Part shown: piece by piece, positions 3,585 through 11,904 of the stretch | How positions within the stretch are numbered: position 1 is the stretch's first letter | Layout of the letters: each line of letters starts with the position of its first letter | From: a phage | DNA: 50,633 nucleotides | Direction: 5' to 3' (one strand) | Sequence record: NC_102605.1 | The notes under the pieces: model-generated | Databases searched by the model: none | Seen by the model: only the letters and a program-made list of their open reading frames with translations | What the model was told of the DNA's origin: nothing | Program-made: the position numbers and the translations under genes

Positions 3585-3748
3585 CATATTTCAAAAACAT
3601 AAAAACCGGAAGAATTTACCGCGTAAACCTGCGTCATAAAAACGCTTTAATTATGAGCAAAGGCGGCTGTTGGGTTAGGTCTGCGCGTTATAGAAATGCA
3701 GATTTAACAGGCTATCCGTTTATCGCCGTAAACAGCACGAATTGCTAA
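3581..3748 (+). CDS. Hypothetical small basic protein (~55 aa), not in ORF track
   Basis: ATGA overlap with the upstream gene; open frame ending inside the next motif. Confidence 0.35.
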   Translation: MTYFKNIKTGRIYRVNLRHKNALIMSKGGCWVRSARYRNADLTGYPFIAVNSTNC

Positions 3749-3750
3749 AA
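3732..3750 (+). promoter_or_regulatory. Dyad-motif cassette (palindromic variant agcacgaattgctaaaa)
   Basis: TAGCA-N5-TGCTA-type dyad, followed by tatcat. Confidence 0.5.
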
Positions 3751-3807
3751 ACGATATCGCTCTGATTGGTATCATACTTTCACACAAACAAAATGGAGAA
3801 TCAAAAA

Positions 3808-4029
3808 ATGAAACTGAAAACTGAATCCATCATGAACATTGTCAAAGCTCACGGGAAAGTAGTTTTGAAAATGGATCGCGCTTCTGGATTCCATCAGTTA
3901 ACGATTACCCGCGTAAAAACTGGTTACGCTGTTGGCGAACATCCAGGCGGTAGAATCCGCCGAATAACTGAAAGTGATGCTTACGCGATGATTGACGAAA
4001 TGAGCATGTTTATTGAGAAGTGGGGTTGA
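3808..4029 (+). CDS. Hypothetical protein (73 aa)
   Basis: ORF track 3766..4029; ATG after GGAGAA RBS. Confidence 0.5.
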   Translation: MKLKTESIMNIVKAHGKVVLKMDRASGFHQLTITRVKTGYAVGEHPGGRIRRITESDAYAMIDEMSMFIEKWG

Positions 4030-4030
4030 T

Positions 4031-4255
4031 ATGGTTCAAGATGCTTTCTTTGCTCGCCTACATGAAGCGGAGGCGGCTGGACTTAACAAAGAATGGGCGC
4101 TTAAAGTTGCCTATCTTGAAATAACGCTTGATGACGCATTAGGCGCTATGGATATGGATCAAGAAAGTAGCGTGATGCTTGCTGATCCTAACGCAATAAT
4201 CAATGATTGCGGTTGTAACTTCGATCCATCTTGCAAGCGTTGTTTCCCATTCTAA
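4031..4255 (+). CDS. Hypothetical protein with Cys-rich C-terminus (74 aa)
   Basis: ORF track 4013..4255; internal ATG after GTGGGG. Confidence 0.45.
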   Translation: MVQDAFFARLHEAEAAGLNKEWALKVAYLEITLDDALGAMDMDQESSVMLADPNAIINDCGCNFDPSCKRCFPF

Positions 4256-4267
4256 GGAGTATTTAAA

Positions 4268-4345
4268 ATGACACCTATCGAAAAAATTTGCTGCCCAAAA
4301 CACGGCGGAAGCGGGGATAAAACAACATGCCCATTCTGTAAGTAA
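4268..4345 (+). CDS. Cys-rich micropeptide (25 aa, CC-x7-C-x2-C), not in ORF track
   Basis: Perfect TAAGGAG RBS 8 nt upstream of ATG. Confidence 0.3.
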   Translation: MTPIEKICCPKHGGSGDKTTCPFCK

Positions 4346-4454
4346 AAAAATAGCGGCCTGTTTAGCGTCGTGTCGCGATTTCAGGCCGTAGCCAATACAG
4401 TTGCGACACCTACAAACAAAACGCCTTACAAGGTCATACAGAAAGGATTTAAAC

Positions 4455-5150
4455 ATGCTTATTTTCTCACTATTTGATGGTTCTGGTTATGCTGCGTTGC
4501 CGTGGGCTGAACGTGGTCACAAAGTGCTGTGCTTTAATTTCGACGGTGCTGATCATGGTGATTACCAATCAGTGCGCGTGACTCATCCCAACATCGTTTA
4601 TTTGAATGAGTGGATCGGATTATCATTCCAGCATAACGCAATGATGCGCGTCTTTGGCACTCCAGATTTTATTATTGCATTCCCTCCATGCACTGATTTA
4701 GCTGTTAGCGGATCGCGTCACTTTGCCGCAAAGCGTGAACGTGATCCAGACTTCCAGAAAAAGGCGGTTGAAACGGCAAAGATTGCTGCCAATATTGCGG
4801 ATCGGTTTAACGTTCCATACATGATTGAGAATCCTGTTAGTGTTCTGTCGTCAATGTGGCGGCAACCTGATTTTATCTTTCATCCTTGCGCGTTTGGAGG
4901 TCTGTTGCCGGAAGATGATAAACATCCTCACTTTCCTGAAATCATTCCCGCTCGCGATGCGTACACCAAAAAAACTTGTCTTTGGACGGGTAACGGCTTT
5001 GTAATGCCGGATACAAACGCAGTATTGCCAACAGGGAACAACAATCCAGGCTGGCAAAAGCTCGGCGGCAAGTCTAAGCGAACAAAGCTGATCCGCTCAC
5101 TCACTCCGCGCGGCTTTGCGCTTGCTGTATGCATGGCAAATCAGAAATAG
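4455..5150 (+). CDS. DNA cytosine-5 methyltransferase-like protein, short, no obvious target-recognition domain (231 aa)
   Basis: Motif I-like FDGSG, PC motif FPPCTDLAVSG and ENV-like IENPV in canonical order; ATG after AAAGGA. Confidence 0.4.
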   Translation: MLIFSLFDGSGYAALPWAERGHKVLCFNFDGADHGDYQSVRVTHPNIVYLNEWIGLSFQHNAMMRVFGTPDFIIAFPPCTDLAVSGSRHFAAKRERDPDFQKKAVETAKIAANIADRFNVPYMIENPVSVLSSMWRQPDFIFHPCAFGGLLPEDDKHPHFPEIIPARDAYTKKTCLWTGNGFVMPDTNAVLPTGNNNPGWQKLGGKSKRTKLIRSLTPRGFALAVCMANQK

Positions 5151-5165
5151 CACTTTTTGTTAAAA
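5145..5165 (+). promoter_or_regulatory. Dyad-motif cassette
   Basis: Motif contains the methyltransferase stop; hairpin gccggat/atccggc; cataat. Confidence 0.6.
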
Positions 5166-5222
5166 CGCCGGATCACGTATCCGGCATAATGATTTCAACG
5201 AAAACAAAAGGAGATAAATCAA

Positions 5223-5585
5223 ATGGCTAAATTCAAATCAATCAAACTTATCGGATCTGATAACCGCCTATACAAAGCGCGGGTAGACGAAAATGATGAT
5301 ACTTTCGTTAAGTTAGATGGGAAATGGATTCACGCCAACTTAACCGGATTAACATTCCGAAATGTTAAGACCAAAACCATTAAATGCACATGGGTAAACC
5401 ACTCCATGCAGATCAAGAAAACTTTCAAAGCCGATAAGCGTTATCAGATAGAACAAGGCCGCGTGTTAGGTGCTGTTGCTGGATACGTGTTCGACGAAAA
5501 CGGCGACCGTTTCACGCTGTATCGGGAAGAAGTTGGATTCTCTGCCGCTGGCGGTGCTTATCTGTTTGAGGCCAAATACTCATGA
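5223..5585 (+). CDS. Hypothetical protein (120 aa)
   Basis: ORF track; AAGGAGA RBS. Confidence 0.6.
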   Translation: MAKFKSIKLIGSDNRLYKARVDENDDTFVKLDGKWIHANLTGLTFRNVKTKTIKCTWVNHSMQIKKTFKADKRYQIEQGRVLGAVAGYVFDENGDRFTLYREEVGFSAAGGAYLFEAKYS

Positions 5586-11166: not shown

Positions 11167-11904
11167 TTAAATACTCCGCGCTTTTGTGCGTTTGTTCTTA
11201 ACAGAAGGGCAAATTTCACTAATTGGCACATAATGAGTTTGTTGTTGCTCACCTTCTTTCAGTTGGCGCATGATAAAAATCACGCTTCCTTTATTGTTTC
11301 CACTAACTTGCTCACCTGTCATGCCAGAAATAAACGACACTCGACCAGTGCGGGAATATTGTTTTCCTTCTTCTTCCCATGTTTCGCCAGTGATCCAGAT
11401 AATTTCCGCCGCGTGTTTTTGTGCATCGCTAAACCATGCGGTTGAGTTGTCAGCCGGAAGTAAAATATCAATCTGGTTTCCGTGTTCCATCTGCTCAATT
11501 GCTTTTAACACAAACGGATCTGGATTGCTGTATGGCGGATTAAGCCAAACATGCTTATTGCTACCCCACCAACGCTTTAAACAGTTTGTTTCTTTGCTGT
11601 AAAACTTATCGCATTTTTTATTATCTTCCGTTGCGGCTGCATCAAGATCATATTTGCCGTAACGTTCGGCAAGATAATCAACAATTTCATCTGGCGTTTC
11701 CCACAAATCGCGCACAACGTCCGGCGTTTTACTTCCTGCATAACGGTTGCCGCTAACCTTCAAAAACGTGTTTTCTCTAACTGGCTGATAATGACCACCT
11801 GAACGCAGCGCAATATCTGAATATCTTCCGTATTGCAGTTCATGAAAATCCATTTCCGGCTCAAAAGTATCAATGGTTGCTTTGTCCTGAAAATCCTTAG
11901 CCAT
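11167..11904 (-). CDS. dam: DNA N6-adenine methyltransferase (phage Dam family)
   Basis: Catalytic NPPY motif (WLNPPYS); size and context typical of phage Dam. Confidence 0.8.
   Translation of the reverse strand: MAKDFQDKATIDTFEPEMDFHELQYGRYSDIALRSGGHYQPVRENTFLKVSGNRYAGSKTPDVVRDLWETPDEIVDYLAERYGKYDLDAAATEDNKKCDKFYSKETNCLKRWWGSNKHVWLNPPYSNPDPFVLKAIEQMEHGNQIDILLPADNSTAWFSDAQKHAAEIIWITGETWEEEGKQYSRTGRVSFISGMTGEQVSGNNKGSVIFIMRQLKEGEQQQTHYVPISEICPSVKNKRTKARSI

What the first reader, a model, noticed from the sequence alone, without database searches (positions are those of the whole stretch)
4268..5150. Orphan cytosine-5 methyltransferase-like protein lacking an obvious target-recognition domain
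The 231-aa ORF carries C5-methyltransferase motifs in the right order (FDGSG, FPPCTDLAVSG with the catalytic PC, IENPV) but is too short to hold a normal target-recognition domain. Together with the Dam methylase at 11167..11904, the phage would encode two DNA-modification enzymes, both plausible anti-restriction functions. Its upstream region has only a degenerate half-motif (aaaTAGCggcc, about 4347) and a different hairpin, so it may be regulated differently from its neighbours.
Basis: partly seen in the sequence, partly recalled or inferred. Interest (0 to 1): 0.55.

Follow-up and report, generated by a model that had tools for sequence, protein, structure and literature searches.

The report
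Compact phage cytosine-5 DNA methyltransferase
This is an ordinary, already annotated gene of a Tls-like (T1-family) phage that encodes an unusually small cytosine-5 DNA methyltransferase; a 65%-identical relative has been shown to make 5-methylcytosine and to set off the bacterial retron Ec86 defence.

Summary
The ORF is real: ATG 4455 to TAG 5150, 231 aa, with FDGSG (7-11), FPPCTDLAVSG (76-86, Cys79) and IENPV (124-128). The window is a Tlsvirus (Drexlerviridae) genome, 99.7% identical to Salmonella phage KKP 3830 over window 4000-5400. The protein is 100% identical to one in Citrobacter phage Sazh.

It is 65% identical over its full length to the 711-bp 'Dcm-like' gene of phage KarlJaspers. 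The phage K42 orthologue of that gene (C82/E128/K175/K176, here C79/E125/K172/K173) raised 5mC on msDNA and triggers retron Ec86.

Only about 28 residues lie where a target-recognition domain normally sits. All relatives are 210-260 aa, so the small size is the family norm and not a truncation.

An anti-restriction role and CCWGG specificity are assumed, not shown.

The finding's start coordinate, 4268, is the ATG of a separate, conserved and mostly unannotated 25-aa cysteine-rich micro-ORF. A stable hairpin follows it.

Verdict: correct observation, mostly correct interpretation, already known; low interest.

The parts
4455..5150 (+). Coding sequence of the compact (231 aa) Dcm-like C5-cytosine DNA methyltransferase. 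Catalytic Cys79 is in PPC (motif IV), E125-N126-P127 form motif VI, and K172/K173 occupy the motif VIII position.
   Evidence: ORF; PHROG 757, E 1.5e-86; 65% identical to Bas06 bas06_0055; conserved columns; fold.
4443..4447 (+). Shine-Dalgarno AAGGA, 7 nt upstream of ATG 4455. It supports the 231-aa start over the TTG 4401 start (249 aa) used in some GenBank records.
   Evidence: sequence. Family N-termini begin 1-8 residues before the SLFD strand. The K42 escaper mutations map 9 bp upstream of the dcm start.
4992..5075 (+). Codons 180-207 (NGFVMPDTNAVLPTGNNNPGWQKLGGKS). This is the roughly 28-residue segment between the motif VIII strand and the motif IX helix, the only space where a target-recognition domain could be.
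   Evidence: secondary structure: strand 174-179, helix 208-215; pLDDT 89-98 in this stretch.
4881..4973 (+). Codons 143-173, a mostly non-regular insertion between strands beta6 and beta7. It carries the invariant P144 and Y170 and the nearly invariant D168 and K172. I infer it is a candidate substitute DNA-contact element.
   Evidence: invariant columns; no regular secondary structure at 151-173, pLDDT about 97-98.
4268..4345 (+). Separate 25-aa micro-ORF, MTPIEKICCPKHGGSGDKTTCPFCK, with an AAGGAG Shine-Dalgarno at 4254-4259. It is not part of the methyltransferase.
   Evidence: 137 phage records carry it, with many synonymous changes and the peptide kept.
4353..4389 (+). Conserved stem-loop between the micro-ORF and the methyltransferase gene. 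It has an 8-bp lower stem (GCGGCCUG/CAGGCCGU), an internal loop and a 3-4 bp upper stem, and no U-tract.
   Evidence: -19.6 to -23 kcal/mol, z -3.9 to -6.0 in four phages; stem invariant, loop variable; not called as a terminator; no Rfam match.
5146..5166 (+). Copy of the 21-mer AATAGCACTTTTTGTTAAAAC. It overlaps the methyltransferase stop codon (TAG 5148-5150) and heads the next gene unit (start at 5223).
   Evidence: 13 copies, 0 expected; annotated as repeat_region in phage Stevie.
3731..3802 (+). Nearest upstream (diverged, 63%) copy of the 72-nt repeat module. It is the likely head of the unit 3808..4029, 4031..4255, 4268..4345 and 4455..5150.
   Evidence: family D1; ORFs. The operon structure is inferred.
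11167..11904 (-). T1-type Dam N6-adenine methyltransferase, the phage's second DNA methyltransferase.
   Evidence: PF05869, E 6.8e-63; PHROG 111.

Best explanation
Window 4455..5150 encodes an active SAM-dependent DNA cytosine-5 methyltransferase. It belongs to a compact, phage-borne subfamily (PHROG 757, annotated 'Dcm-like' in Drexlerviridae). I infer the usual C5 mechanism: Cys79 of the PPC loop attacks C6 of a flipped-out cytosine, Glu125 of ENP protonates N3, and the methyl group of SAM is transferred to C5. SAM would be held by the F-x-G-x-G loop at residues 7-11 and the acidic residue after strand 2. The enzyme keeps the catalytic Rossmann-type domain (motifs I-VI, VIII, IX, X). In place of a separate target-recognition domain it has only about 28 residues, plus a conserved 31-residue beta6-beta7 insertion, so whatever DNA recognition exists must come from these short elements. 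It appears to be made as the last gene of a small early/middle unit next to the replication genes, and it would methylate phage DNA and any other DNA in the cell. Shown for a 65%-identical orthologue (phage K42, KarlJaspers type): more 5mC on retron msDNA, dependent on the residues equivalent to C79/E125/K172/K173, and activation of retron Ec86/Eco1. Inferred only: that its benefit to the phage is protection from restriction, and that its target is CCWGG.
For: Family membership: PHROG 757 at E 1.5e-86 over residues 1-230. It is 65% identical without large gaps to Bas06 bas06_0055, a 711-bp 'Dcm-like C5 cytosine methyltransferase' in the same gene neighbourhood. It is 59% identical to Pantoea phage AAS23 gp52.

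Catalytic residues: P77, C79, G86, E125, N126, P127 and K172 are at least 90% conserved in 75 relatives of 30-86% identity.

Experiments in the literature: K42 Dcm residues C82/E128/K175/K176 map exactly onto the Bas06 numbering, and with a 3-residue offset onto C79/E125/K172/K173 here. LC-MS showed raised 5mC on msDNA with the wild-type enzyme but not the mutant, and the gene is the escape locus for retron Ec86 (bioRxiv 10.1101/2023.08.16.553469). AAS23 virion DNA was reported to be Dcm-methylated by restriction analysis with an enzyme panel that included EcoRII, and HHpred gave 99.7% to a C5-methyltransferase (PMC8004638).

Not a truncation: 1246 clusters (50% identity) match at E<=0.001, and nearly all are 210-260 aa.
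Confidence: 0.85

Rival explanations
1. It is an active C5 DNA methyltransferase, but the 'Dcm-like / CCWGG' label is wrong. Lacking a target-recognition domain, it would methylate a very short motif (2-3 bp), act almost non-specifically, or prefer single-stranded or hairpin DNA such as replication intermediates and msDNA.
For: Only about 28 residues lie between motifs VIII and IX. The closest solved structures are DNMT3A/3B; from my own knowledge, these have the smallest TRDs and read only CpG. There is no detectable similarity to host Dcm-type models (NCBIfam gives 0 hits). In the K42 work CCWGG was assumed from E. coli Dcm and tested only by mutating the msDNA stem. msDNA from cells with the mutant or empty vector had low 5mC in MG1655, and from my own knowledge MG1655 is dcm+. 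The authors also note that the enzyme may itself be toxic.
Against: Changing CCTGG in the msDNA abolished defence. AAS23 DNA, from a phage with a 59%-identical enzyme, was reported as Dcm-methylated on the basis of restriction digests. Compact recognition of 4-5 bp by loops is not excluded.
Confidence: 0.3
2. It transfers a group other than methyl. For example, it could be a C5-carboxymethyltransferase using host Cx-SAM, like phage CmoX.
Confidence: 0.03
3. It is an RNA (tRNA) m5C methyltransferase of the DNMT2 type, not a DNA enzyme.
Against: DNA methyltransferases score higher. The orthologue raised 5mC in the DNA part of msDNA.
Confidence: 0.03
4. It is a decayed, catalytically dead remnant of a methyltransferase that lost its TRD, kept only by linkage or for a non-enzymatic role.
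For: The very short length and the absence of Pfam or NCBIfam hits.
Against: Catalytic residues are at least 90% conserved across 75 relatives down to 30% identity. There are 1533 phage records and 1246 sequence clusters of the same length. The fold is complete and confident. Catalytic-residue mutants of the orthologue lose the phenotype.
Confidence: 0.03

Closest known systems
Dcm-like C5 cytosine methyltransferase of Escherichia phage KarlJaspers (Bas06 bas06_0055) and its K42 orthologue, the trigger of retron Ec86/Eco1
   Same: Full-length alignment at 65% identity with a 236 aa protein against 231 aa here. The same catalytic residues are present (C82/E128/K175/K176 there, C79/E125/K172/K173 here). 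The position is the same, upstream of two small genes and the DUF3987 helicase, and a Dam gene sits elsewhere in the same genome.
   Different: The genus differs (Hanrivervirus against Tlsvirus). In Bas06 the gene directly follows the 74-aa-type ORF after 9 nt, whereas here a 199-bp spacer with a micro-ORF and a hairpin is inserted. No experiment has been done on the Tlsvirus protein.
Pantoea phage vB_PagS_AAS23 gp52 (DNA cytosine methyltransferase)
   Same: 59% identical over the full length and found in a Drexlerviridae phage. Its authors also found no conserved domain by BLASTP but a 99.7% HHpred match to a C5-methyltransferase, and they reported Dcm-type methylation of virion DNA.
   Different: The evidence there is restriction digestion only, and the host's own Dcm was not excluded.
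DNMT3A/DNMT3B catalytic domains (closest solved structures, e.g. 6u8p, 5yx2)
   Different: Only 13-17% identity. From my own knowledge, the DNMT3 domains are longer (about 280 aa), act as oligomers with DNMT3L and read CpG. The oligomeric state and the target of the phage enzyme are unknown.
Canonical bacterial C5-methyltransferases (M.HhaI, M.HaeIII, E. coli Dcm / M.EcoRII; Pfam PF00145)
   Different: Below the PF00145 and NCBIfam thresholds. About 100 residues shorter, with no separate TRD. The motif VIII position has K-K instead of (from memory) Q-x-R-x-R. A conserved insertion of about 31 residues lies between beta6 and beta7.
CmoX, phage DNA cytosine C5-carboxymethyltransferase (8yf3)
   Different: CmoX is 333 aa, recognises GC, uses Cx-SAM through an active-site Arg, and is linked to phage cmoA and a ligase. 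None of the flanking ORFs scanned here matches such a gene.

Membership tests
Compact phage 'Dcm-like' C5-methyltransferases (PHROG 757; K42/Bas06 Dcm type) | Full-length profile match to the family model | tested here: met
   PHROG 757 at E 1.5e-86, residues 1-230. There are 5404 relatives at E<=0.001 and 1533 phage records.
Compact phage 'Dcm-like' C5-methyltransferases (PHROG 757; K42/Bas06 Dcm type) | Residues shown to be needed in K42 Dcm (C82, E128, K175, K176) are present | tested here: met
   They align to C79, E125, K172 and K173. C79, E125 and K172 are at least 90% conserved.
Compact phage 'Dcm-like' C5-methyltransferases (PHROG 757; K42/Bas06 Dcm type) | Length of about 210-260 aa with no separate TRD | tested here: met
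231 aa here.
Compact phage 'Dcm-like' C5-methyltransferases (PHROG 757; K42/Bas06 Dcm type) | Makes 5mC in DNA and triggers retron Ec86 | not testable with these tools
   Shown only for the K42 orthologue.
DNA (cytosine-5) methyltransferases, canonical (Pfam PF00145) | Score above the curated profile threshold | tested here: not met
   No Pfam hit at E<=10. Only 6 of 75 relatives match, sub-threshold, with best E 0.0039. NCBIfam gives 0 hits.
DNA (cytosine-5) methyltransferases, canonical (Pfam PF00145) | SAM-dependent methyltransferase fold with C5-type topology | tested here: met
DNA (cytosine-5) methyltransferases, canonical (Pfam PF00145) | Motif I F-x-G-x-G, motif IV P-C and motif VI E-N-V in that order | tested here: met
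   F7-D-G9-S-G11, P78-C79 and E125-N126-P127-V128. In the family consensus motif I is relaxed to LFDxTG.
DNA (cytosine-5) methyltransferases, canonical (Pfam PF00145) | Motif VIII Q-x-R-x-R (canonical form recalled from memory) | tested here: not met
   The equivalent strand reads T-K172-K173-T-C-L-W. The two lysines were part of the quadruple K42 mutant (C82A/E128A/K175A/K176A) that lost the toxicity and the 5mC signal; they were not tested on their own.
DNA (cytosine-5) methyltransferases, canonical (Pfam PF00145) | Separate target-recognition domain between motifs VIII and IX | tested here: not met
   Only residues 180-207 lie between strand 174-179 and helix 208-215.
Host-type Dcm / M.EcoRII (CCWGG-specific) | Orthology to E. 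coli Dcm (curated NCBIfam or Pfam models) | tested here: not met
   NCBIfam gives 0 hits at E<=10. That this library contains a Dcm-type model is my assumption.
Host-type Dcm / M.EcoRII (CCWGG-specific) | Methylates the inner C of CCWGG | not testable with these tools
   This is assumed for K42, and the restriction data for AAS23 are indirect. The window has 118 CCWGG sites, which is not depleted.
CmoX-type C5-carboxymethyltransferases | Linked phage cmoA and amide ligase genes | tested here: not met
   The five flanking ORFs scanned are small proteins of unknown function and the next gene is a DUF3987 helicase. The whole window was not scanned for cmoA.

The most novel reading that the evidence does not exclude
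The compact enzyme is not a CCWGG 'Dcm'. It would be a minimal C5-methyltransferase whose recognition is reduced to a very short motif, or to DNA structure (single-stranded or hairpin DNA), read by the conserved beta6-beta7 insertion and the 28-residue stub. That would explain both the toxicity its authors suspected and why it methylates retron msDNA that the host Dcm appears to leave largely unmethylated.
Probability: 0.3. Interest if true: 0.5.

Novelty: already known. Interest (0 to 1): 0.22.

Why it matters
As found, it matters little. The gene is annotated in dozens of near-identical Tlsvirus genomes, and its family has a published function as the trigger of retron Ec86. The useful points are practical ones. 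This very common phage family (1533 phage records) is invisible to Pfam and NCBIfam. It is often annotated with a wrong, N-terminally extended start, or as 'hypothetical'. Its sequence specificity and its benefit to the phage have never been measured directly. A methylome experiment on this minimal enzyme would show how a C5-methyltransferase recognises DNA without a target-recognition domain.

Tried and rejected
1. Pfam, NCBIfam and PDB-sequence searches with the single protein gave nothing useful. The family profile against PDB sequences was marginal.

2. I looked for a compositional footprint of 5mC targets, meaning depletion of CpG, GpC, CCWGG or 4-mers. CpG rho is 1.20, GpC is 1.48, and CCWGG occurs 118 times against about 105 expected, so nothing can be inferred.

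3. I scanned ten longer relatives (292-453 aa) for extra domains that might hint at partners. Pfam found none.

4. I tested whether the upstream hairpin or intergenic region is a known RNA or a terminator. There was no Rfam match and the terminator scan did not call it. The fold of the whole 205-nt spacer is not unusual (z -1.15); only the local hairpin is. A long-range pairing predicted is broken in phage Tls, so I dropped it.

5. I considered that the micro-ORF could be an obligate partner or TRD surrogate of the methyltransferase. I rejected this because it also occurs in phages next to unrelated genes and is absent next to the Bas06 gene.

6. The U136B annotation of the upstream 74-aa ORF as 'putative cytosine DNA methylase' is not supported. 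Pfam gives nothing and PHROG 9323 has unknown function.

7. The afdb50 fold library was unavailable.

Full report
**What is at the locus**

The window is a complete or nearly complete Tlsvirus genome (Drexlerviridae, Tempevirinae). Window 4000-5400 is 99.7% identical to Salmonella phage KKP 3830 and 98-99% identical to Citrobacter phages Sazh and Stevie, Escherichia phage U136B and others.

The mechanical ORF runs 4401..5150. The real gene almost certainly starts at ATG 4455 (231 aa), for two reasons:
- AAGGA lies 7 nt upstream of that ATG.
- In relatives the N-terminus begins only a few residues before the first beta strand.

The finding's start coordinate, 4268, does not belong to this gene. 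It is the ATG of a separate 25-aa ORF (4268..4345).

**Is it a C5-methyltransferase?**

Curated sequence models alone would say no:
- Pfam and NCBIfam give no hit even at E<=10.
- PF00145 appears only sub-threshold in 6 of 75 relatives.
- A family profile reaches only E 0.27 (DNMT2) and 0.85 (M.HaeIII) against PDB sequences.

Three other lines of evidence overrule it.

1. *Family match.* PHROG 757 'DNA methyltransferase' matches at E 1.5e-86 over the whole protein.
2. *Fold.* An AlphaFold2 model built on 75 diverse relatives is very confident (pLDDT 95.6, pTM 0.92).
   - Foldseek gives the same picture.
3. *Conserved catalytic residues.* P77, C79, G86, E125, N126, P127 and K172 are at least 90% conserved down to 30% identity.

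**Link to experiments**

The literature search led to the retron Ec86 study (bioRxiv 10.1101/2023.08.16.553469; its published title, 'DNA methylation activates retron Ec86 filaments for antiphage defense', is cited in later papers).
- Escape mutants of phage K42, a KarlJaspers (Bas06)-type Drexlerviridae phage, all hit a 711-bp dcm gene.
- Expressing that gene is toxic only when the retron is present.
- LC-MS showed raised 5mC on msDNA with the wild-type enzyme but not with the C82A/E128A/K175A/K176A mutant.

I fetched KarlJaspers (MZ501090). Its bas06_0055 is 711 bp, is annotated 'Dcm-like C5 cytosine methyltransferase', and has C82, E128, K175 and K176 at exactly those positions. The window protein aligns to it over its full length at 65% identity. 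The four residues correspond to C79, E125, K172 and K173. The gene order is also the same: methyltransferase, two small ORFs, then the DUF3987 helicase.

A second relative is Pantoea phage AAS23 gp52, 59% identical. Its authors described it as having no conserved domain but a 99.7% HHpred match to a C5-methyltransferase. They reported AAS23 virion DNA as Dcm-methylated on the basis of restriction digests (PMC8004638).

**The missing target-recognition domain**

In the model, the motif VIII strand is residues 174-179 and the motif IX helix starts at 208. That leaves about 28 residues where, from my own knowledge, canonical bacterial enzymes have a domain of roughly 80-100 residues.

The shortness is the family norm. 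An exhaustive HMMER search found 1246 clusters (50% identity) at E<=0.001, almost all 210-260 aa long. tblastn found the gene in 1533 phage records across Drexlerviridae, Dhillonvirus, rV5-like, Phi1-like and other phages.

The family also has a conserved insertion of about 31 residues between beta6 and beta7. It carries the invariant P144 and Y170. I suggest, as inference only, that this insertion takes part in DNA binding. The closest solved structures, DNMT3A and DNMT3B, are from my own knowledge the C5 enzymes with the smallest recognition regions.

**What is not established**

*Specificity.*
- In the K42 work, CCWGG was taken over from E. coli Dcm and tested only by mutating the msDNA stem.
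- The AAS23 restriction result does not exclude methylation by the host Dcm.
- The protein is not detectably an orthologue of host Dcm.
- Composition analysis gave no signal.

*Benefit to the phage.* The BASEL study found no simple relation between these methyltransferase genes and restriction resistance in Drexlerviridae (PMC8594841). The only demonstrated phenotype is activation of a host defence.

I therefore put 0.85 on 'active DNA C5-methyltransferase'. I put about 0.3 on the more interesting variant, that its specificity is not CCWGG but much shorter or structure-dependent. Carboxymethyl transfer, RNA methylation and a dead remnant are each about 0.03.

**Context and regulation**

A 21-mer, AATAGCACTTTTTGTTAAAAC, occurs 13 times in the window against 0 in shuffles.
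- In the first 9 kb, four of its copies (736, 1246, 2799 and the diverged copy at 3731) are part of a 72-nt repeat module that runs on to a GAGGA/GGAGA-type ribosome-binding site (family D1).
- The copy at 5146 is followed by the related shorter repeat (family D3, 5183-5214), which ends in AAGGAGA.
- In phage Stevie it is annotated only as repeat_region.

One copy overlaps the methyltransferase stop codon (5146-5166). None precedes the methyltransferase gene, where only AATAGC (4349-4354) is found, and that is a chance-level 6-mer. The nearest upstream module is the diverged copy at 3731-3802. The methyltransferase therefore looks like the last gene of a four-ORF unit (inferred).

Between the micro-ORF and the methyltransferase gene is a stable stem-loop:
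- It spans 4353-4389 and folds at -20 kcal/mol (z -3.9).
- It is conserved in four phages, with an invariant lower stem and a variable loop.
- It has no U-tract, is not called as a terminator and has no Rfam match.

Whether it dampens expression of a potentially toxic enzyme is speculation.

**The micro-ORF**

The 25-aa ORF (MTPIEKICCPKHGGSGDKTTCPFCK) has a strong AAGGAG Shine-Dalgarno 8 nt upstream. It is found by tblastn in 137 phage records from unrelated groups: Tlsvirus, a Klebsiella phage, Pseudotevenvirus Lw1, RB43 and CfP1, and Skatevirus. Many substitutions are synonymous and the peptide is kept. It is almost never annotated.

Its neighbours vary:
- In Klebsiella phage RCIP0096 it lies 10 nt downstream of the 75%-identical methyltransferase.
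- In Lw1 and Skate its neighbours are unrelated genes.
- It is absent next to the Bas06 gene.

So it is a real, mobile small gene and not an obligate partner of the methyltransferase.

**Verdict**

The gene is already known and annotated, and its family has been experimentally characterised. Interest is low. The open questions are the enzyme's true specificity and its benefit to the phage.

Noticed in passing
window 4268..4345 (+): A 25-aa cysteine-rich micro-ORF (MTPIEKICCPKHGGSGDKTTCPFCK; C-C-x2-H ... C-x2-C) with a strong AAGGAG ribosome-binding site. It is conserved in 137 phage records of unrelated groups, with many synonymous changes, and is almost never annotated. Each copy is followed by a different hairpin. 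Its function is unknown and PHROGs gives no hit.
   Followed up: partly
window 4353..4389 (+): A stable conserved stem-loop (-20 kcal/mol, z -3.9) between the micro-ORF and the methyltransferase gene. The lower stem is invariant and the loop is variable in Tls and two metagenomic relatives. It has no U-tract and no Rfam match. The DNA from 4225 to about 4390 is far more conserved than the methyltransferase coding sequence that follows.
   Followed up: partly
window 736, 1246, 1895, 2799, 5146 (+); 10902, 12260, 14718, 20465, 44024, 46448, 48013, 49303 (- strand starts): The 21-mer AATAGCACTTTTTGTTAAAAC (partly palindromic, TAGCA..TGCTA) occurs 13 times against 0 expected. On the + strand it often overlaps the stop codon of the preceding gene. 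At four sites in the first 9 kb it is part of a 72-nt repeat module that ends at a ribosome-binding site. It is probably a phage regulatory or promoter-associated element, and is annotated only as repeat_region in phage Stevie.
   Followed up: partly
window 4031..4255 (+): The upstream 74-aa ORF is annotated 'putative cytosine DNA methylase' in phage U136B. It has no Pfam hit and belongs to PHROG 9323 of unknown function, so that annotation looks spurious.
   Followed up: yes
window 4401..4454 (+): Several GenBank records (Tls at 259 aa, BlueShadow at 249 aa, tinuso at 257 aa) start the methyltransferase at upstream TTG or other codons. The ribosome-binding site and the family N-termini favour ATG 4455 (231 aa).
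   Followed up: partly
related records: OR786094.1, NC_054898.2, MG065647.1: Three records labelled with non-enteric hosts match sequences from this enterobacterial phage. OR786094.1 (Streptococcus phage MBBL140) carries a 100%-identical micro-ORF, NC_054898.2 (Vibrio phage Vc1) an 80%-identical one, and MG065647.1 (Campylobacter phage D#, 137 kb) a 50%-identical methyltransferase. Their host labels may be wrong. I did not check whole-genome similarity.
   Followed up: no
BFVD hits A0A6J5SE15 (1397 aa) and A0A6J5NPY6 (1126 aa): The same compact methyltransferase fold (26-29% identity, TM about 0.65) occurs as one domain of very large helicase-type proteins in uncultured phages. The minimal domain is therefore also used as a module.
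   Followed up: no
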